Position numbers and translations under genes: made by a program. Positions 3,162 to 36,363 of a stretch of DNA of 64,000 bases are shown here, piece after piece (positions within the stretch are counted from its first letter, which is position 1; the number at the start of each line of letters is the position of its first letter). The stretch spans positions 1 through 64,000 of IMG/VR virus record IMGVR_UViG_3300025865_000006; one strand, given 5' to 3'. The notes under the pieces are model-generated. The model was given only the letters and a program-made list of their open reading frames with translations, was not told the DNA's origin and searched no databases. The DNA comes from a virus.

Positions 3162-3235
3162 ATGGTGATGGTGTAATGGAAACATGATAGTCTCCAAAAC
3201 TATTGATCAGAGTTCGAGTCTCTGTCGCCATGCCA
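3162..3235 (+). tRNA. trnW: tRNA-Trp(CCA)
   Basis: ATGGTGA/TCGCCAT, ATAGT-CTCCAAA-ACTAT, GCCA. Confidence 0.88.
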
Positions 3236-3260
3236 AACTATAGAAAGCGAACAGTTATAT

Positions 3261-3335
3261 GCCGAGGTAGCTCATTGGTAGAGCGGTGGTTTGAAGGTCC
3301 GCGCGTAGTCAGTTCGATTCTGACTCTTGGCACCA
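3261..3335 (+). tRNA. trnF: tRNA-Phe(GAA)
   Basis: GCCGAGG/TCTTGGC, loop TTGAAGG, ACCA. Confidence 0.85.
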
Positions 3336-5649: not shown

Positions 5650-6510
5650 ATGTTTAGAAGATTTTTAGAGTTTTTTAGGTTTGGGGACTGGCGTCATGAG
5701 GAACCCCATAAGCATTATGAACGTCCCAAGATAAGTTTACTTATACCCTTTACTACTAAAAGTGCTGAGAGAAAAGCCGAATTTAAATGGCTTCTTAAAT
5801 ATTGGAGGCACGAACTTCCAGATGCAGAGATTATAGTTGGCGAATCCCACAATAAAGTATTCTGTAAAGGCGAAGCATTAAATCAAGCAGCTAGAAAATC
5901 AACTGGAAAAGTTCTAGTAATTCTTGATGCCGATGCCTATATATCGGGAAGAGTTATTGAACGATGTGCTAACCGAATTCTTGAAGAGATGCAAGACCAT
6001 CTATGGTATGTTCCATACCGTCATTTATACCGTTTAAAAAGGGAAGCGAGTAAAAAGATTATAGCTTCTGATCCAGAGCACCCTCTTAGATTACCTTCAC
6101 CCCCATTGATGGAAGATGTTGAAAATGGTAAACAGAGTAATTATGGTCATCGTTATGGCGCAATGATTATGATCTTTCCTAGAGAGGCGCTTGACGCGGT
6201 AGGTGGATGCTTTGATGAACGATTCAAAGGATGGGGCGGGGAGGATGTAGCATTACTTAGGGCACTAGATACCCTATATGGAAAACACAAGACTGTTAAT
6301 ACTGATATAATTCATCTCTGGCATCCTGTTATTGGGGATAGTTATAAGACCCGAATTTGGAAAGGCCAGAAAGGGTCGCAACCTAATAGTAACTTAGCAA
6401 TGGCTTATCATAGAGCTACAAGAAAGCCCGATCAGATGAGGGCGCTAGTAGAAGTAGGGTGTAGATATAGTAAACGTGGTCATTCTAGATTTAATCGAAA
6501 AGGTAAATAA
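5650..6510 (+). CDS. GT-A glycosyltransferase (GT2/GT7-like)
   Basis: ISLLIPF, KGEALN, ILDAD (DxD), FDERFKGWGGED, HLWH. Confidence 0.9.
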   Translation: MFRRFLEFFRFGDWRHEEPHKHYERPKISLLIPFTTKSAERKAEFKWLLKYWRHELPDAEIIVGESHNKVFCKGEALNQAARKSTGKVLVILDADAYISGRVIERCANRILEEMQDHLWYVPYRHLYRLKREASKKIIASDPEHPLRLPSPPLMEDVENGKQSNYGHRYGAMIMIFPREALDAVGGCFDERFKGWGGEDVALLRALDTLYGKHKTVNTDIIHLWHPVIGDSYKTRIWKGQKGSQPNSNLAMAYHRATRKPDQMRALVEVGCRYSKRGHSRFNRKGK

Positions 6511-6515
6511 TCATA

Positions 6516-6633
6516 GGGGTGTGCGAAGCTAATAACTTCCTCCGTAGAGTCTAGTCAGGACTTATACTAGAACGAGCCGGGTGTACAACAACTGTCAACA
6601 GTAATGACTATCTTAGGCTGGTTAGTCGCCCCA
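6516..6633 (+). ncRNA. candidate structured RNA
   Basis: GGGGTG/CGCCCC closing stem, internal TCTAGT/ACTAGA hairpin, no RBS-led ORF seen. Confidence 0.35.
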
Positions 6634-6642
6634 ATAAAATTA

Positions 6643-6728
6643 GGATCGGTTGAGCAATTGGCTGGCTCGCCTGACTGTAAATCAGGTCCCTTTAGGGCGT
6701 GTAGGTTCAAGTCCTATCCGGTCCACCA
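6643..6728 (+). tRNA. trnY: tRNA-Tyr(GTA)
   Basis: GGATCGG/CCGGTCC, CCTGA-CTGTAAA-TCAGG, long variable arm, ACCA. Confidence 0.9.
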
Positions 6729-6730
6729 AT

Positions 6731-6814
6731 GGGGTTGACTTAGAAGTTCCCACGGGGGGATTAAGTTCTTGCCAAAGGAAAAACTCGGGGGGCAGCGCCC
6801 CGACAACTCCACCA
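6731..6814 (+). ncRNA. Ala-acceptor tRNA-like RNA (resembles the tmRNA tRNA-like domain, no mRNA domain)
   Basis: GGGGTTG/CAACTCC with G3:U70, A73-CCA, T-arm TCGGGG-GGCAGCG-CCCCGA. Confidence 0.65.
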
Positions 6815-6815
6815 T

Positions 6816-6892
6816 TGCGGGATAGAGAAGTGGTCTATCTCATCTGTTTCATAAGCAGCTAATCGTGGGTCCGAATCCCACTCCCGCAACCA
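6816..6892 (+). tRNA. trnM: tRNA-Met(CAT)
   Basis: TGCGGGA/TCCCGCA, loop TTCATAA, ACCA; lacks the three G-C anticodon-stem pairs of initiators. Confidence 0.82.
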
Positions 6893-6917
6893 CTCTTTCT
6901 AGTAGTGAGGTCATACG

Positions 6918-7175
6918 ATGACAGAACTTAGACACAGTAGAGATATTACTAGATTTCAAAGAGACAGAATGATTAAAAAGCGAAAGCAGAATCCCATCGC
7001 GGAGTTCTTTAATGTCCCTTACGATAACTGGTATTCCAAGCACCACTTCTCAGATTGTAGTTGTGATATGTGTAAGAGCCCAAGATATATAAGACCTAAG
7101 TTTGATTGGCGTCGTGCTTTATACGATCAAGATTACGCAACATTAGAGAAGAGAATAATACAGAACGGTTGGTAA
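6918..7175 (+). CDS. hypothetical protein
   Basis: GAGGT RBS; CSCDMC motif. Confidence 0.7.
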   Translation: MTELRHSRDITRFQRDRMIKKRKQNPIAEFFNVPYDNWYSKHHFSDCSCDMCKSPRYIRPKFDWRRALYDQDYATLEKRIIQNGW

Positions 7176-7179
7176 ACAT

Positions 7180-7206
7180 AAGCCCTGAGAAATCAGGGCT
7201 TTTTTA
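7180..7206 (+). terminator. intrinsic terminator closing the tRNA region
   Basis: AAGCCCTGA-GAAA-TCAGGGCTT followed by T-run. Confidence 0.85.
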
Positions 7207-7219
7207 TTTGGGGTTTGAA

Positions 7220-7882
7220 ATGGAAGAAGAACAGCACAAAATACCGGCAGGGTATGAAGGGAAGATAAAAAGACTTAGAAACATTCCTAGGTTCAAAGAT
7301 TTTACTGACTGGCAACTGTTTCAGATGATCTTACGTAAAGAGCAGATCAAGGAAGAACAGAAGTTAGTTACTCTTAGTGAACCTTCTGCTAAACTCGATA
7401 AGAGATTTGAGCAGAAACTTGCTAAACTACAAACAGAGTATGGAATCGATATGAACGAATCCAATGACTCAGAAGCACTAAAACAGTTAGTTAGATACCT
7501 TATCCAGCAAGAAGACTTTGATAAGGATATGACAAGTGTTAAAGAAACACTCAAAGCCGATCCTGTTAATCTTTCTAGAACGTTAAAATCTTACGGCGAC
7601 CTACAGCGCAGCCTAACAATGTCTATCAATGAATTACAGGATAGACTCGGTATTACACGGAAGGCGCGAAAGGAAAAGCAAGTAGATGATATTCCCCAGT
7701 ATATAGACTCTATCAGAACAAGGGCGCTAGAGTATTGGAAACGAACAACGACAGGAATTACTTGCCCTAGTTGCAATATAGAGTTGGCACGATACTGGCT
7801 CAATTTTCCAGACCAAGAAAGCAGTATTAATATTAATCTTGTCTGCTGGAAATGTAGTGAACAGGTAATATTTGTGAGATAG
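7220..7882 (+). CDS. putative terminase small subunit or hypothetical with C-terminal zinc ribbon
   Basis: Directly upstream of TerL; helical; CPSC...CWKC. Confidence 0.5.
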   Translation: MEEEQHKIPAGYEGKIKRLRNIPRFKDFTDWQLFQMILRKEQIKEEQKLVTLSEPSAKLDKRFEQKLAKLQTEYGIDMNESNDSEALKQLVRYLIQQEDFDKDMTSVKETLKADPVNLSRTLKSYGDLQRSLTMSINELQDRLGITRKARKEKQVDDIPQYIDSIRTRALEYWKRTTTGITCPSCNIELARYWLNFPDQESSININLVCWKCSEQVIFVR

Positions 7883-9457
7883 ATGGAAGACGAAGAAGTA
7901 TTCGAACAGGAGTGGGCGCTGGCACAAATCCTTGCGCACCCAGTCCTATTTAGAGAATTTATAAATCAGGATGATCCTAACTGGCACGGCCTAGAGTTAC
8001 ACGAAAGGGCTTGGTCAACCTGTACATCTAGCTATGTTTCAATGTGCTGTGGGCGATCTGTGCACAAAACAACCACCATGATAGAGTTACTTTATTATTG
8101 GATGGTTAATAAGATGTTTATCCCCGGTGATCCGGGGCTTTTTGTTTTGGTTCCTAATAAGGCACAGAAGGATTTGGCGTTCTTTAGAATTCGATCAGCG
8201 TGCCTTACACACTGGCTTATAAAACAGTATGGTTCCTCAATAAATGTATCCGAAGGAAAGATAGACTTCGCCAACGGGTTCCAGCTATTGATGCGTATTG
8301 CGGGTTCAGCAGGATCGGAAGCAAACGTTATTGGTGTACACACATTCCGTATATGGGTAGACGAGGCTCAGGACTTGCCGTGGAGAACATGGCTCTCCCT
8401 ACAAAACTGTCTAAAGCCTGAAATAGATGGCTACCAGATGCTAACTTCTGGTGTACCTAATGGTGAACGAAGAGAAAACGTTCTCTATACAACAGACCAG
8501 TTAGATGAGAAGTATATTAAGTTTAATGCTCCCCAAACTATTATGAGTTGGTGGACCCCCGAACTAGAATATACAAGACGAAAAGAATATTTCTCACTCC
8601 AAGAAGATTCAGAAGATTTCAAGCACTACGTTCTTGGTCAGCACGGAGTACCTACATTCTCTGTATTCGATAGAACACGATTCCTAACCGATGATTACGA
8701 AGTACAGCTAATAGTACTTAATCACCATATGTTTGAAGGGTGCAAGAGAAAGGATATTGATGGGCAGGTACGCTACCACCTAGAGGAAATCCTCGCACCA
8801 CCGCCTATAGAGCCTTACAGAGGCGCTATACCGAGAGTCGGATTGGGATATGATGTAGGGTTCTCTCCTGATCCCGGTGTCTTTTTTATCATGTATGAAG
8901 ATTTACAGACAGGTAAATGGAGGAATCTTGCCCGAATAGTTATGCAACGTGTAGAGTATGCTTTACAGAGAGAGGTATTAATCTGGCTAGATAGAATATA
9001 TAAATTTGAATTCATCGGTATTGATATGGGTGGACCGGGCAAGGTTCAGTATCAAGACCTAGCCGGTGATCTAACCCAGTATGGAGAATATAACTATATT
9101 CAAAGACTATACCCTGTAGAGTTTGGTTCCTTTATTGTTGTTGCTGTTGATGAAGACGGCGTAGAGAAAAAGGAGCAGATGAAGAAGCACTCTGTTGAGA
9201 CATTATCTAGATGGGTACAGCAAGACAGGTCTTTCGTATTCTCAAAGGATGACGATAACCTGATGGCGGAACTGGAAAGAACAAAATTCCGACGAACTAT
9301 TACAGGAGAGCCGGTCTATTTCACAGACGATGACCACCAAATGGCCGCAATGATGTGCGCTGTTATGGCATATGAAAACTCATACGGTGTTCCCGTGTTA
9401 CATTTAAAGGAAGAAGTCAAAATTAGGCTCATACCTGCTAAGTGGTTAGTGGCTTAA
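7883..9457 (+). CDS. terL: terminase large subunit
   Basis: Walker A-like GRSVHKT, Walker B IWVDEAQD, SGVPNG, nuclease GYDVG, GIDMG, DDDH; upstream of portal. Confidence 0.85.
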   Translation: MEDEEVFEQEWALAQILAHPVLFREFINQDDPNWHGLELHERAWSTCTSSYVSMCCGRSVHKTTTMIELLYYWMVNKMFIPGDPGLFVLVPNKAQKDLAFFRIRSACLTHWLIKQYGSSINVSEGKIDFANGFQLLMRIAGSAGSEANVIGVHTFRIWVDEAQDLPWRTWLSLQNCLKPEIDGYQMLTSGVPNGERRENVLYTTDQLDEKYIKFNAPQTIMSWWTPELEYTRRKEYFSLQEDSEDFKHYVLGQHGVPTFSVFDRTRFLTDDYEVQLIVLNHHMFEGCKRKDIDGQVRYHLEEILAPPPIEPYRGAIPRVGLGYDVGFSPDPGVFFIMYEDLQTGKWRNLARIVMQRVEYALQREVLIWLDRIYKFEFIGIDMGGPGKVQYQDLAGDLTQYGEYNYIQRLYPVEFGSFIVVAVDEDGVEKKEQMKKHSVETLSRWVQQDRSFVFSKDDDNLMAELERTKFRRTITGEPVYFTDDDHQMAAMMCAVMAYENSYGVPVLHLKEEVKIRLIPAKWLVA

Positions 9458-33618: not shown

Positions 33619-36363
33619 GTGAATACGATTCTACAGATTAGGCTTTCGTTACCAAATTTTGCCAGCGGGGTAAGCTTTGTAGACCCGGTAATTATTGAGC
33701 GGGCGGAAAATGTTTCACTAGTTAAGACAGTAAGCTCTAGTGACGAAACTATTACATTTGAGATGCCCCTTAATGATCCCAAGATGCAGTATGTTACTTA
33801 TATCCGTTGGTGGGAATGTTGGGATACAGATACAAACGTGCGACTAAATTATGGGCCAATTACTGCAATTAGTTATACTAGTGGACAAACTAAAAAGATA
33901 TCTGGTCCCGGTAGATCGGCCTTACTGGAAGAGTTTTATAAGAGCACCCAAACATTCTATTATCCAATTAACCAGTTCTTTGATGACCTGCGTTACGAAA
34001 ATATTGCTGGTGAGCCTCGTACTTCAACTATCATTAACAAGGCTACTAGTTCTGATTACTACGGCTTAAGTCTACGTACCAAAGATTTTGCCATTGATGA
34101 GCAAACAGGGTTTATCTCTATTGGTAGAGATACGCCAGAGCGAGGAACAAAAAAGAGCGATGCTTTCTGGACAGGGATAGACAAAGCAGATTATCTTACA
34201 GTTAATCTAGGGGACAAGTATACCATTTCTAAAGCCCTAGTGTTACTTCCTTGGTGGGGTGGGCCAACAGTTTGGAATACTAGAACATACGAGTGGGATT
34301 GGTCACACTCAGATAGTCCTGATAGCGGATTTACTACTGATTTTACTACTGTTGGACCTCATGATGGTGCTTGGATGGACCCGGCTATTGGTGGGACACC
34401 TATTTACTATGGGGGGGAAACAGGATTTGATAATCATCAGATAGCGGTAGATGGGGATGCAGTAGAAGCACAATATTGGAAGGTAAATATAAGGGATGCA
34501 CATGCTTGGTATGGAAATGCCCTAGCTGGTGTCTCTTCTGATGAGTGGGGTTGGGAATGTGGGGAAAGTAATGTGCTGTTTGGAAATAGTGCTATTTCCC
34601 CAACAGTAAGTGGGGGAATTATTCCTAAAACTGACTTAAATCCATCAAGTAACTGCCATGCTTCGGTAGTAGAATTAGGTGTATATAGAAAAATTCTAGG
34701 TAGGGATAACATCCCTAACCTAGCATACCACCAAATACAAGATGATAATAGACAGATTACTTATTATCATGTACCCGACGCTAGTGAAATGATTAGTGCT
34801 GGTTCCGGTACTAAGTTTGAACCGGGTGGATTTTTTAGAAGGGTTACATACACATCTGGTGGGGGAAATATAGTAAAGAGTGAGTTTAATAATATTTTAT
34901 ATACAGGTGGAAGTTATACCTTATCGTGCCCCGCTTATTCTAGACTGCTGTTATTTAGCGATGCCTCTACCCAAGTAACGCAAGCTGACGCATGGATAAG
35001 TACTGTAGATGCCTTTTCTTATGGGGGAAGTTACTCCCACACTATTGTACAGAATGATACGGCTGTTCTACACTTTAGGGGAGTCTCACTAAAATGGTTT
35101 GCCACCATACCCGAAGGCTCTACAGCAGGTCGAGTATCCATTGAATTGCGATCCAAGGATGGTGCAGGTATATGGACTGACTGGGACACATTAGAAGCTG
35201 GTCTTACGCTTCCTGTAGGTGTTTCAGCAGAAAAGGTCTATGAGATAACCTATGAGTCTGCTCTACTTCAAGACGACACAAATTATGAATTAAAAATTAC
35301 CAATCTAAATGGTGGTTATGTATCTATTGATGCCTTTGCAGGATATTGGTCAGCCTCTTTCTCAGAAATTAATGAGGATGATAATAGGTTTGGAATAGCG
35401 GCGCTAACTGAAGCAACACAGCTTTTTAATTCAGCAGACTCCTTCGGTAGTGTATATGAGTTTAAGGATGTAGGGCATGTTGCGAAGATGGGCTTCACCT
35501 TTACAGGGGATAGGATTATTGTTTATGCTAAGAAGGGTCCGAACTCTGGCAAGATTCAGGTATTCTTATGGAATCCCTTTGGACCGGGTACGTATCCCAT
35601 TCCCGGTGGGGAAGCAGATGGCTCACTCATAGTTGACCTACAGAGTGCCTATGAGGTTCCACAAGTGGTCATCTTTGATTCTAATGATTTCTTTACTGAT
35701 ACCGGCTTACCTTGGGCACATCACCAACTTTATATTTGGAAACCGGATGATACTGCTCCTATGTATGTAGATGGCCTAGGGGTTCATGAGACAAGCGGAC
35801 TTAGCGTTAAGTTTGTAAACACAACACATCTAGAGATACTAAAAAATACATGTGAAGCACTACAACTAGAGTGGGATGTAACGGAAAACGGTATTTTAGT
35901 TGTCCCAAGAATTGGAACGGATACAGATGTAATCTTTGCAGAGGGCAGGGGAACTACGATTAGTATCCAAGATGATGAGGATTCTAGCCAAGTAGCAACT
36001 ATGCTTATATCTTCAGGCTCAGATATTGATGGATTACCCTTAACAACGGTAGTAGAGAACAAGGTAACTAGAAAGCTGTTTGGAAGAACCATTCAGCGTT
36101 TGTATGACTTTAGAAATATTGGAGATTACTTTACACTTATTGGGGCATCTAGAGCAGAGTTATTAAAGCGTAGAACACCGCAGAAGAAAATTATAGTTAC
36201 CTATGCCCCCGGTCCCCTACCTGTAAACTTAGGTGATAGTTTTATAGTCAAGAACACTGATTTGGAAGTTCGTGTTAGAGCAATAACAATTACAAGGAAT
36301 CAATCTTCCAGTGCGGGTACAGACTATTCAATGGAGTGTATAACATGGCCGCAGATCATATAA
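33619..36363 (+). CDS. tail tip hub protein (Tal-like) with inserted carbohydrate-binding modules
   Basis: Hub-like N- and C-termini (TFEMPLNDPK; VNLGDSFIV) around discoidin/galactose-binding-like domains. Confidence 0.7.
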   Translation: MNTILQIRLSLPNFASGVSFVDPVIIERAENVSLVKTVSSSDETITFEMPLNDPKMQYVTYIRWWECWDTDTNVRLNYGPITAISYTSGQTKKISGPGRSALLEEFYKSTQTFYYPINQFFDDLRYENIAGEPRTSTIINKATSSDYYGLSLRTKDFAIDEQTGFISIGRDTPERGTKKSDAFWTGIDKADYLTVNLGDKYTISKALVLLPWWGGPTVWNTRTYEWDWSHSDSPDSGFTTDFTTVGPHDGAWMDPAIGGTPIYYGGETGFDNHQIAVDGDAVEAQYWKVNIRDAHAWYGNALAGVSSDEWGWECGESNVLFGNSAISPTVSGGIIPKTDLNPSSNCHASVVELGVYRKILGRDNIPNLAYHQIQDDNRQITYYHVPDASEMISAGSGTKFEPGGFFRRVTYTSGGGNIVKSEFNNILYTGGSYTLSCPAYSRLLLFSDASTQVTQADAWISTVDAFSYGGSYSHTIVQNDTAVLHFRGVSLKWFATIPEGSTAGRVSIELRSKDGAGIWTDWDTLEAGLTLPVGVSAEKVYEITYESALLQDDTNYELKITNLNGGYVSIDAFAGYWSASFSEINEDDNRFGIAALTEATQLFNSADSFGSVYEFKDVGHVAKMGFTFTGDRIIVYAKKGPNSGKIQVFLWNPFGPGTYPIPGGEADGSLIVDLQSAYEVPQVVIFDSNDFFTDTGLPWAHHQLYIWKPDDTAPMYVDGLGVHETSGLSVKFVNTTHLEILKNTCEALQLEWDVTENGILVVPRIGTDTDVIFAEGRGTTISIQDDEDSSQVATMLISSGSDIDGLPLTTVVENKVTRKLFGRTIQRLYDFRNIGDYFTLIGASRAELLKRRTPQKKIIVTYAPGPLPVNLGDSFIVKNTDLEVRVRAITITRNQSSSAGTDYSMECITWPQII

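What the first reader, a model, noticed from the sequence alone, without database searches (positions are those of the whole stretch)
6731..6814. 84-nt alanine-acceptor RNA resembling a tmRNA without its mRNA domain
Seen: packed 2 nt after tRNA-Tyr and 1 nt before tRNA-Met; acceptor GGGGTTG/CAACTCC with G3:U70, A73 and CCA; 5' GGGGTTGA start; 6-bp T-stem with loop GGCAGCG instead of TTCRA; an extended CTTAG..TTCCC/GGGGG..TTAAG arm instead of a D-arm; a stunted TTCTT-GCCAA-AGGAA hairpin (containing TGC) instead of an anticodon arm; no tag frame. Known: G3:U70 plus A73 is the AlaRS identity, GGCRGUA is the alphaproteobacterial tmRNA T-loop signature, and jakobid mitochondrial tmRNAs lack the mRNA domain. 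Inference: a chargeable non-decoding RNA acting as an SmpB/tmRNA decoy, a tag-free rescue RNA, an Ala donor for RqcH or Fem/MprF-type transfer, or a nuclease decoy. No canonical tRNA-Ala is in the window.
Basis: partly seen in the sequence, partly recalled or inferred. Interest (0 to 1): 0.8.

Follow-up and report, generated by a model that had tools for sequence, protein, structure and literature searches.

The report
Phage mini-tmRNA without a message
An uncultured peat phage carries, among its tRNA genes, an 84-base RNA gene that keeps only the alanine-accepting, tRNA-like end of the bacterial ribosome-rescue RNA (tmRNA); one such gene is already in print from a mycobacteriophage, and this copy is an unusual variant whose loop matches the tmRNA of alphaproteobacteria.

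Summary
Window 6731-6814 is a discrete 84-nt gene, 2 nt after tRNA-Tyr and 1 nt before tRNA-Met. It has a 7-bp acceptor stem with G3:U70, A73, an encoded CCA, a 6-bp T stem, the T-loop GGCAGCG and no anticodon loop.

It is not a decayed tRNA-Ala. The phage has a normal tRNA-Ala(TGC) outside the window. Relatives hold, just before tRNA-Met, 88-125-nt homologues with the same 7+6 helix. Two of these hit Rfam tmRNA end to end, below threshold (20-22 bits).

A covariance model built without the window finds the element end to end (37.5 bits, E 3e-6). All 65 stem cells pair, and 6 of 13 pairs change on both sides.

The odd T-loop is the alphaproteobacterial tmRNA type: 29 of 29 parsed alphaproteobacterial tmRNA genes read GGCRG. 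A near relative has flanks about 95% alike but a standard-type element.

The kind is in print as the 'TLD only' ssrA of mycobacteriophage DS6A, suggested there to inhibit tmRNA by titrating SmpB. Restrictive pattern scans found about 18 further short forms in viral contigs, and earlier notes of this scan report similar genes on other DNA.

The function is untested. My best guess is interference with, or tag-free use of, host trans-translation. I class it as a new variant of a known kind.

The parts
6643..6728 (+). tRNA-Tyr(GTA) with encoded CCA. It is the upstream neighbour; cleavage at the element's 5' end frees its 3' trailer.
   Evidence: ARAGORN; Rfam tRNA 51.2 bits
6731..6814 (+). The whole 84-nt non-decoding, alanine-identity, tmRNA-TLD-like RNA gene
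   Evidence: Sequence; fold; family model R1 37.5 bits, E 3.4e-6; syntenic homologues
6731..6737 (+). Acceptor stem, 5' strand (GGGGTTG). G3 is at 6733.
   Evidence: Pairs with 6804-6810. All 7 pairs hold in 5 of 5 sequences, and 3 pairs change on both sides
6738..6746 (+). D-loop analogue (a UAGA motif where relatives have UGGA). In the minimum-energy fold it is partly paired with 6762-6766.
   Evidence: L075, the other copy with a GGCAGCG T-loop, also has UAGA. The tertiary role is inferred.
6746..6761 (+). G+C-rich inner hairpin of the extended arm
   Evidence: Minimum-energy fold only. No sequence variants were available to test it.
6766..6780 (+). Small hairpin with a 5-bp stem and 5-nt loop GCCAA. 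It is not an anticodon loop.
   Evidence: No 7-nt loop with U33 can be drawn, and relatives have 4-6-nt loops at their hairpin (and reading).
6781..6784 (+). Linker AAAC before the T stem. 'AC' is kept in all clade members, where tmRNA has GGAC.
   Evidence: Alignments; tmRNA consensus
6785..6803 (+). T arm: a 6-bp stem (TCGGGG/CCCCGA) and the 7-nt loop GGCAGCG
   Evidence: 6 of 6 pairs hold in 5 of 5 sequences, and the outer two pairs change on both sides. The loop is the alphaproteobacterial tmRNA type.
6804..6814 (+). Acceptor 3' strand (CAACTCC, U70 at 6808), discriminator A73 (6811) and encoded CCA (6812-6814)
6816..6892 (+). tRNA-Met(CAT). It is the downstream neighbour in every clade member that has the element.
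   Evidence: ARAGORN; Rfam 57.3 bits; the L011 tRNA-Met missed by ARAGORN was found

Best explanation
The 84-nt gene is a reduced, message-less relative of the tRNA-like domain (TLD) of tmRNA. The kind is known from mycobacteriophage DS6A as 'TLD only' ssrA.

Inferred from context and from the known substrate rules of the enzymes:
- It is transcribed with the tRNA array.
- RNase P cutting at its own 5' end and at the 5' end of tRNA-Met releases it, and its CCA is already encoded.
- Its acceptor/T helix with G3:U70 and A73 makes it a likely substrate of the host alanyl-tRNA synthetase.

Shown: it has no anticodon loop and no tag frame, so it cannot decode.

Inferred mechanism, untested: it engages the host factors that normally serve tmRNA (SmpB, and EF-Tu once charged). 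It thereby competes with the host tmRNA and damps tagging of stalled-ribosome products during infection.

Its T-loop is the alphaproteobacterial tmRNA type, while near relatives carry the standard type. This suggests the mimic is fitted to the tmRNA/SmpB of the particular host.
For: Identity:
- Homologues lie in the same position (directly before tRNA-Met) in relatives. These are L002, L004 and L006 (identical to each other), L005, L011, L018 and L026.
- L002 and L005 match RF00023 over model positions 1-374 at 19.9 and 21.7 bits. The tRNA model scored lower and was dropped by clan competition.
- The published comparator DS6A behaves alike: 34.7 bits against a threshold of 47.
- Model R1, built without the window, finds 6731-6814 at 37.5 bits, E 3.4e-6.
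- Stems are under selection. 65 of 65 cells pair, 6 of 13 pairs change on both sides, 0 of 500 shuffles reach the covariation score, and slid controls pair at 55-71%.
- G3:U70 is kept in 5 of 5 aligned sequences, and also in L026 and L075.
- The hairpin in L002 versus L005 shows compensatory changes (reading).
- The phage has a separate normal tRNA-Ala, so this gene is not its decoder.

T-loop:
- All 29 parsed alphaproteobacterial tmRNA genes read GGCRG, and one reads GGCAGCG. That one is a genuine alpha_tmRNA at 199 bits.
- A second phage copy, L075 (130 nt), has the same T-loop and the same 7+6 helix.

Fast local turnover:
- A soil-run relative has flanks with 11 differences in 210 nt and 8 in 163 nt.
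- Its element interior does not align at 80% likeness. Its loose ends show the standard T-loop, a GGA-CGA 5' motif and a compensated acceptor stem.

Mechanism:
- Hudson et al. 2014 (passages read) state that a TLD-like molecule, chargeable or not, strongly inhibits tmRNA, perhaps by titrating SmpB. They cite Mao et al. 2009, which I could not read.
- The phage encodes no SmpB, RF-1/ArfB-type domain, peptidyl-tRNA hydrolase or AlaRS. Any action must therefore go through host factors.
Against: - The window copy gets no Rfam hit at all: tmRNA and tRNA at E<=10, alpha_tmRNA 0 matches, mt-tmRNA no match at the element.
- It lacks the tmRNA D-loop motif (GGA..UCGAC) and has AAAC instead of GGAC before the T arm. 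These are regions I recall as SmpB contact sites, so SmpB binding is not assured.
- Its T stem has 6 pairs rather than the usual 5. However, 6-bp T stems also occur in full-length tmRNAs of viral contigs.
- One clade member, L020, has G3:C70 and an offset CCA. Another, L026, ends TCA. Alanine charging is therefore not kept everywhere.
- The gene is missing from many relatives. L010 and L027 have Tyr directly followed by Met. L021, L022, L024 and L025 have tRNA-Thr in the slot. L007 and L008 have Arg followed by Met. It is therefore dispensable.
- The two central hairpins rest on energy alone. Runs X4 and X5 carry the identical sequence, so there is no variation to test them.
- There is no evidence of expression, processing, charging or SmpB binding.
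- The host is unknown, so 'fitted to the host tmRNA' is untested.
Confidence: 0.45

Rival explanations
1. Tag-free ribosome rescue. Ala-charged RNA enters stalled ribosomes with host SmpB and EF-Tu and accepts the nascent chain. The ribosome is then freed without a degradation tag, so truncated phage proteins are not destroyed. This is what has been proposed for the message-less tmRNAs of jakobid mitochondria.
For: - The alanine identity marks and encoded CCA are kept in most members.
- PMC11915505 (passages) lists CDS-less plastid tmRNAs and 2-aa tags.
Against: - With no resume codon or stop codon, the peptidyl-RNA would need a separate release step. The phage encodes no RF-1/ArfB-type or Pth domain.
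- A 13-bp acceptor/T helix and the missing D-loop motif make normal A-site accommodation uncertain (inference).
- L020 has lost G3:U70.
Confidence: 0.2
2. The RNA has no function in trans. It is a processing punctuation element (an RNase P/Z handle between tRNA-Tyr and tRNA-Met) or a slowly decaying remnant of a longer TLD gene.
For: - Spacers of 2 nt and 1 nt.
- Only the acceptor/T helix is conserved, and the interior is replaced between near relatives.
- The gene is lost in many relatives.
- Lengths range from 118-125 nt (L011, L018, L026) through 88-89 nt to 84 nt here.
- L020 and L026 have blemished ends.
Against: - Adjacent tRNAs elsewhere in the same array are separated by 2-4 nt with no such spacer, so no handle is needed.
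- G3:U70 and A73-CCA are irrelevant to punctuation, yet they are kept in 7 distinct sequences.
- Compensatory changes show continued selection on a 13-bp helix.
- The T-loop is not random decay. It equals a natural tmRNA loop class and recurs in L075.
Confidence: 0.15
3. Another use of a charged or uncharged alanine-type mimic. It could be a decoy for host tRNA-targeting defence nucleases or RNase R, or an Ala donor for non-ribosomal aminoacyl transferases.
For: - The gene sits in a large phage tRNA array (29 tRNAs).
- PMC11662646 (passages) shows a phage protein loading tRNA and tmRNA fragments that bind RNase R, so tmRNA-like RNAs can serve in counter-defence.
Against: - No linked nuclease-, ligase- or transferase-type gene was found next to it. 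The neighbours are glycosyl- and pyruvyl-transferase-like genes, an HNH endonuclease, a methyltransferase and the terminase.
- Nothing ties alanine identity to a known anticodon nuclease (recalled).
Confidence: 0.1
4. A minus-strand intrinsic terminator. The T arm followed by the A-run reads, on the other strand, as a G+C-rich hairpin followed by a T-run.
For: The consensus scan lists 6803-6785 on the minus strand: a 6-bp stem, 5 G-C pairs, and the tail GTTTTTCC.
Against: - 4 terminator-like sites were found against 1.9 +/- 1.4 expected in shuffles, so this is weak.
- All credible genes here are on the + strand.
- This reading does not explain the acceptor stem, the CCA or the homologues, whose A-runs are broken.
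Confidence: 0.02

Closest known systems
'TLD only' (CDS-less) ssrA of mycobacteriophage DS6A (Hudson, Lau & Williams 2014, PMC4131195; repeated in PMC11915505). Located here at JN698994 28478-28560 = L251:679-761.
   Same: - A phage-borne RNA gene of about 83 nt.
- It consists of the tmRNA acceptor stem with G3:U70, a T arm and a short hairpin in place of the message and pseudoknots.
- It scores below the Rfam tmRNA threshold (34.7 against 47 bits) and is unannotated in its record.
   Different: - DS6A keeps the tmRNA 5' motif (UGG..CGAC), a 5-bp T stem and a standard UUCGAUU T-loop. It ends ACUA and stands alone between protein genes.
- The window copy has a UAGA-type D-loop analogue, a 6-bp T stem, a GGCAGCG T-loop, two hairpins and an encoded CCA. 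It sits inside a tRNA array and gets no Rfam hit.
tRNA-like domain of bacterial tmRNA (Rfam RF00023), and in particular of the two-piece alphaproteobacterial tmRNA (RF01849)
   Same: - GGGG start, 7-bp acceptor stem with G3:U70, A73-CCA, T arm directly stacked on the acceptor stem, and no anticodon arm.
- The T-loop GGCAGCG fits the GGCRG loop seen in 29 of 29 alphaproteobacterial genes, and equals that of G001.
   Different: - No message, tag frame or pseudoknots.
- Contiguous rather than permuted.
- AAAC instead of GGAC, and no UCGAC.
- A 6-bp rather than 5-bp T stem. All 29 alphaproteobacterial genes parsed under my 5-bp criterion.
- 84 nt against roughly 300-390 nt.
Message-less tmRNAs of jakobid mitochondria (Jacob et al. 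2004, cited in PMC3590771) and CDS-less plastid tmRNAs of about 65 bp (PMC11915505)
   Same: - Reduced to the tRNA-like part and keeping the alanine identity marks.
- Some have unusual T-loops. Reclinomonas has GG in place of UU (PMC1168896).
   Different: - Organellar, mostly two-piece, and partnered by a nucleus-encoded SmpB.
- The Rfam mt-tmRNA model does not match the element.
tRNA-Ala and the alanine acceptor minihelix
   Same: G3:U70, A73 and CCA, which are sufficient marks for AlaRS (established knowledge; PMC3590771 passage).
   Different: - No D arm and no anticodon arm.
- 13 rather than 12 stacked pairs.
- The Rfam tRNA model gives no hit.
- The phage's true tRNA-Ala(TGC) is a separate, normal gene.

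Membership tests
tmRNA (Rfam RF00023 / ssrA) | 7-bp acceptor stem starting GGG(G), with G3:U70, discriminator A and CCA | tested here: met
tmRNA (Rfam RF00023 / ssrA) | T arm stacked on the acceptor stem, with a tmRNA-type T-loop (UUCRANY, or GGCRGUA in alphaproteobacteria) | tested here: met
   The loop GGCAGCG is the GGCRG type found in 29 of 29 alphaproteobacterial tmRNA genes. The stem has 6 rather than 5 pairs, which is also seen in full-length tmRNAs of viral contigs.
tmRNA (Rfam RF00023 / ssrA) | 5' D-loop analogue GGA(U)UCGAC and 3' GGAC forming helix 2a | tested here: not met
   The window has ACUUAGAAG and AAAC. Relatives L002 and L005 keep GGACGA and AAC.
tmRNA (Rfam RF00023 / ssrA) | mRNA-like domain with resume codon, tag frame and stop, plus pseudoknots | tested here: not met
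   - Only 47 nt lie between the acceptor stem and the T arm.
- ARAGORN calls no tmRNA or tag.
- The apparent short frame shared by L002 and L005 is explained by compensatory changes in a hairpin (reading).
tmRNA (Rfam RF00023 / ssrA) | Score at or above the Rfam gathering threshold (47 bits) | tested here: not met
   No hit at E<=10. Relatives score 19.9 and 21.7 bits.
tmRNA (Rfam RF00023 / ssrA) | Alanylation, SmpB and EF-Tu binding | not testable with these tools
   Needs bench work.
Phage 'TLD only' mini-tmRNA (DS6A type) | A phage gene of about 65-130 nt made of the tmRNA acceptor stem and T arm joined by a short hairpin, with no tag frame | tested here: met
   - Architecture.
- DS6A comparator.
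- Further short forms in viral contigs: 15 genuine loci, about 12 distinct forms, plus 6 with a 6-bp T stem.
Phage 'TLD only' mini-tmRNA (DS6A type) | Demonstrable sequence kinship to tmRNA | tested here: inconclusive
   The link is indirect. The window copy is tied by synteny and model R1 (37.5 bits) to L002 and L005, which hit RF00023 only below threshold.
The window phage clade's 7+6 family (model R1) | 7-bp acceptor plus 6-bp T stem, 'AC' before the T stem, G3:U70, and a position directly before tRNA-Met | tested here: met
tRNA (RF00005), decayed tRNA-Ala | Cloverleaf with a D arm and a 7-nt anticodon loop (U33, anticodon NGC) | tested here: not met
   No Rfam tRNA hit at E<=10 and no ARAGORN call. 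Homologues have no cloverleaf either.

The most novel reading that the evidence does not exclude
The phage keeps a small molecular mimic of its host's tmRNA and re-fits it when the host changes. Between phages whose flanking DNA is about 95% alike, the interior of the gene has been swapped. The elbow (T-loop plus D-loop analogue) went from the standard UUCGA/UGGA type to the alphaproteobacterial GGCRG/UAGA type, while the 13-bp alanine-type helix was kept by compensatory changes. If so, mini-tmRNAs are host-specific inhibitors or hijackers of trans-translation, and their loop type could be read as a host marker for uncultured phages.
Probability: 0.2. Interest if true: 0.75.

Novelty: new variant of a known kind. 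Interest (0 to 1): 0.5.

Why it matters
Phage genes for message-less tmRNA mimics have been noted in print once (DS6A) and, as far as my searches show, never studied at the bench in a phage.

What this case adds:
- They form conserved families inside the tRNA arrays of large soil and peat phages.
- Standard finders miss them (ARAGORN, Rfam).
- Their loops can switch between tmRNA classes over very short evolutionary distances.

If they block or redirect the host's ribosome-rescue and protein-tagging system, they are a compact RNA-only way of host takeover. They would also be a possible tool for switching off trans-translation. If loop type follows host class, they would help assign hosts to uncultured phages.

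For annotation, the practical point is that such genes are left unannotated, or are mis-called as long tmRNAs running over protein genes (L052).

Tried and rejected
**Decayed tRNA-Ala.** Rejected. Homologues show no cloverleaf, and the genome has a normal tRNA-Ala.

**A very short tag frame.** In L002 and L005 a frame ends at a stop in the same place, with differences that look third-position-like. I rejected this for three reasons.
- The same differences are compensatory within a hairpin.
- The conserved A+U-rich loop of L018 and L026 has no shared frame.
- Stops are expected by chance in about 45 nt.

**8+5 reading of the 13-bp helix.** Rejected. Position 8 pairs with the extra 3' base in only 1 of 5 sequences (reading).

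**Direct similarity searches with the 84 nt.** nhmmer and blastn-short against 28 relative loci gave nothing meaningful. Megablast of 6000-9000 against phages hit only a tRNA-Tyr.

**blastn of the L002 element against phages.** It found only shared 3' ends:
- an alanine-type amber-suppressor tRNA in Aeromonas phages;
- an unannotated permuted tmRNA in Synechococcus phage S-CRM01.

blastn of the L052 element found one partial hit.

**Junction-pattern scans.** Scans of viral and metagenome contigs returned only contigs already held.

**A mis-typed spacing.** One search returned only coding-sequence noise. One search corrected it and gave L075 plus two false hits.

**Genome-contig scan for the T-loop.** Of these, 21 had complementary flanks, and nearly all were a conserved protein-coding motif. 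Only L115, and perhaps L143, look like RNA genes.

**Rfam alpha_tmRNA and mt-tmRNA on the genome.** No match at the element. The permuted models cannot align a contiguous form, so this is a weak test.

**Sequencing runs.** No RNA holder was listed, so nothing can be said about expression. Runs X4 and X5 carry the identical element.

**Minus-strand terminator.** Rejected.

**Papers not held.** I could not read Mao et al. 2009, Keiler et al. 2000, the ARAGORN paper or Jacob et al. 2004. The claim about TLD inhibition therefore rests on the sentence in PMC4131195. Supplements were not consulted. The tmRNA database tables may list more phage TLD-only genes than the main texts name.

**Searches behind 'in print once'.** ('mini-tmRNA': 0 papers).
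Full report
**What is there**

The window is the first 64 kb of a 117-kb IMG/VR phage record that is estimated 98% complete. It has 41-46% G+C. ARAGORN finds 29 tRNA genes in the genome, 19 of them at the start of the window.

The element lies between tRNA-Tyr (6643-6728) and tRNA-Met (6816-6892). It runs from 6731 to 6814 and has these parts:
- a 7-bp acceptor stem with G3:U70, A73 and an encoded CCA;
- a 6-bp T stem around the loop GGCAGCG;
- a 47-nt interior that folds into one extended arm and one 5-bp hairpin with a 5-nt loop.

ARAGORN calls nothing there. Rfam gives no match, even at E<=10 on a 351-nt slice. No 7-nt anticodon loop can be drawn.

**It is not the phage's tRNA-Ala**

The genome has a normal tRNA-Ala(TGC) at 101469-101542, outside the window. 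It encodes no SmpB, RF-1/ArfB-type domain, peptidyl-tRNA hydrolase or AlaRS.

**Relatives**

The large terminase (7883-9457) recovered 28 related loci from viral contigs. A homologous element sits in the same slot in several of them.
- The nearest relatives have terminases 85-87% identical to the window's. L002, L004 and L006 carry the same 89-nt gene, and L005 carries an 88-nt gene.
- These have a GGGG start, a compensated acceptor stem, G3:U70, a 6-bp T stem, AAC before the T stem, and ACCA.
- They differ from the window in having the standard T-loop UUCGACU and a GGACGA motif after the acceptor stem.
- Both match Rfam tmRNA across the whole model, at 19.9 and 21.7 bits. The threshold is 47 bits, and both outscore the tRNA model.

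More distant relatives (terminase about 60% identical) carry longer versions of 118-125 nt, each directly before tRNA-Met. These are L011, L018 and L026. They fold as acceptor stem, single-stranded D-loop analogue, one long irregular hairpin, and T arm.

L020 has a clear homologue of the L018 type, but with G3:C70 and an offset CCA.

Other relatives lack the gene:
- L021, L022, L024 and L025 have tRNA-Thr(TGT) in the slot.
- L010 and L027 have nothing there.
- L007 and L008 have tRNA-Arg next to tRNA-Met.

**Tests of kinship and of selection**

An alignment of the window with L002, L005, L011 and L018 gave these counts:
- 65 of 65 stem cells paired;
- 6 of 13 pairs changed on both sides;
- 0 of 500 shuffles reached the covariation score;
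- only 55-71% pairing when partners are slid by 1-3 columns;
- G3:U70 in 5 of 5 sequences;
- the sixth T-stem pair reading A:U, A:U, G:C, G:U and U:A.

A covariance model (R1) was built from L002, L005, L011, L018 and L075, without the window. It finds 6731-6814 end to end at 37.5 bits, E 3.4e-6. The best ordinary tRNA scores 18 bits.

I first suspected a tiny tag frame shared by L002 and L005. The same differences turned out to be compensatory changes in a hairpin, so I dropped that idea.

**The odd T-loop**

The loop looked like decay, but it is a known natural class. I sampled 41 genomes of the class of a genome whose record title names an alphaproteobacterium. Of these, 40 had an alpha_tmRNA above threshold.

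I took 30 loci, leaving out the one from an unpublished genome. My script parsed 29 of them:
- all 29 have a T-loop starting GGCRG;
- 13 read GGCAGTA and 12 read GGCGGTA;
- 1 each reads GGCAGCG, GGCAGAG, GGCAGTG and GGCGGAA.

A second phage contig, L075 (from a 176-kb record), has a 130-nt gene with the same 7+6 helix, the same AAAC and the same loop. It has UAGA where the standard-loop copies have UGGA, as does the window. Loop and D-loop analogue thus change together, which fits a kept elbow contact. That last step is inference.

Six-pair T stems are not unique to these genes. Several full-length tmRNAs in viral contigs have them.

**Fast local turnover**

Public runs X4 and X5 carry the window's element unchanged. 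Run X6 holds a relative with these features:
- its flanks differ at 11 of 210 and 8 of 163 positions;
- its contigs stop aligning at 6735 and resume at 6814;
- the unaligned ends show a GGA-CGA 5' motif, the standard T-loop and an acceptor 3' strand that compensates its 5' strand.

So the interior of the gene has been replaced, or has diverged very fast, between phages that are otherwise about 95% alike.

**How common, and what is known**

Two restrictive pattern scans of IMG/VR found short tmRNA-like genes in unrelated viral contigs.
- One search listed 26 stretches.
- 4 of the 26 are the window's relatives.
- 4 are false: one full-length tmRNA (L057), two tRNA-Ala genes (L053, L056) and L051.
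- 15 of the remaining 18 are the genuine short genes of 79-104 nt aligned. They group into about 12 distinct forms.
- The other 3 (L054, L069, L072) are identical copies left out of that alignment.
- One search added 6 more short genes with a 6-bp T stem (L254, L255, L256, L261, L263, L264), beside full-length tmRNAs.

ARAGORN either misses these genes or, in L052, extends the call over a protein gene.

In print:
- Hudson et al. 2014 list 'Mycobacterium phage DS6A (TLD only)'. They write that a similar molecule, chargeable or not, strongly inhibits tmRNA, perhaps by titrating SmpB (passages).
- The 2025 tmRNA database paper repeats this and adds CDS-less plastid forms (passages).
- I located the DS6A gene (83 nt, unannotated). 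It scores 34.7 bits on RF00023, also below threshold.
- A search for 'mini-tmRNA' found no paper.

Earlier notes of this scan report similar alanine-type mimics on other phage DNA. They are unchecked leads. They agree with the DS6A comparison, which I had reached independently from the literature.

**How it most likely works**

Shown:
- The gene is real and conserved as a 13-bp alanine-type helix.
- It is non-decoding and is related to tmRNA-like genes.

Inferred from context and from known substrate rules:
- It is co-transcribed with the tRNAs and released by RNase P.
- It is charged by AlaRS.

Inferred from one sentence in the literature, and untested here: it competes with host tmRNA for SmpB and EF-Tu.

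Points against the SmpB part:
- The window copy lacks the tmRNA D-loop and GAC motifs.
- One relative has lost G3:U70.
- Many relatives do without the gene.

I put 0.45 on the stated explanation. Kinship alone is about 0.8, and the decoy mechanism alone about 0.35-0.4. The rivals are tag-free rescue (0.2), no trans function (0.15), other mimic uses (0.1) and a minus-strand terminator (0.02).

**Verdict**

This is a real and well-supported gene. The most interesting open point is whether the switch of loop class tracks the host's tmRNA.

Noticed in passing
G000 100716-100799 (outside the window; L218): An 84-nt tRNA-like gene lies 5 nt after tRNA-Ser(TGA) and is missed by ARAGORN. It has a class-II shape, an anticodon-loop-like CCGCUAA (GCU with C33), the unusual T-loop AUCGUCA and discriminator G. 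It may be a non-canonical tRNA-Ser(GCU).
   Followed up: no
In L002 and L005 the corresponding place holds tRNA-Arg(TCG), 2 nt before tRNA-Tyr. In run X6 the stretch is about 95% conserved.
   Followed up: partly
L074 1466-1560 (Synechococcus phage S-CRM01, HQ615693 about 88440-88540): An unannotated permuted (two-piece type) tmRNA gene lies after tRNA-Leu. The acceptor piece ends ...CUCCA and is followed within 6 nt by a GGGGAUG...UUCGAC 5' piece.
   Followed up: no
L073 2452-2523 (Aeromonas phage Akh-2 and relatives): An amber-suppressor tRNA (anticodon CTA) carries alanine identity marks (G3:U70, A73). It is annotated variously as tRNA-TERM, tRNA-Pyl or tRNA-OTHER in related records.
   Followed up: no
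L052 2976-3318 (also L054, L069): ARAGORN calls a 343-nt tmRNA with a 30-aa tag that runs over a protein-coding gene. The real gene is an 85-nt TLD-only form at 3234-3318.
   Followed up: partly
L007, L017, L024, L025: Relatives of this phage carry a tRNA with anticodon CTA (called tRNA-Pyl by ARAGORN), that is, an amber suppressor. The window's phage has none.
   Followed up: no
L010 6586-6660, L027, L011 1730-1802: The tRNA-Met(CAT) genes of these relatives are missed by ARAGORN.
   Followed up: partly
window 35323-35399: A weak full-length match to the Rfam mt-tmRNA model (22.9 bits, threshold 65). It is probably chance.
   Followed up: no
L143 (Chloroflexia MAG): A T arm with loop GGCAGCG and a ...GGUCCACCA end lies about 12 nt before a tRNA gene. 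It may be another alanine-type mimic, in a bacterial genome.
   Followed up: no
L017 8505-8599: A 95-nt tRNA-like element (7-bp acceptor stem, T loop UUAGAUU, ends UCCA) sits 1 nt before tRNA-Gln and is not called by ARAGORN.
   Followed up: no
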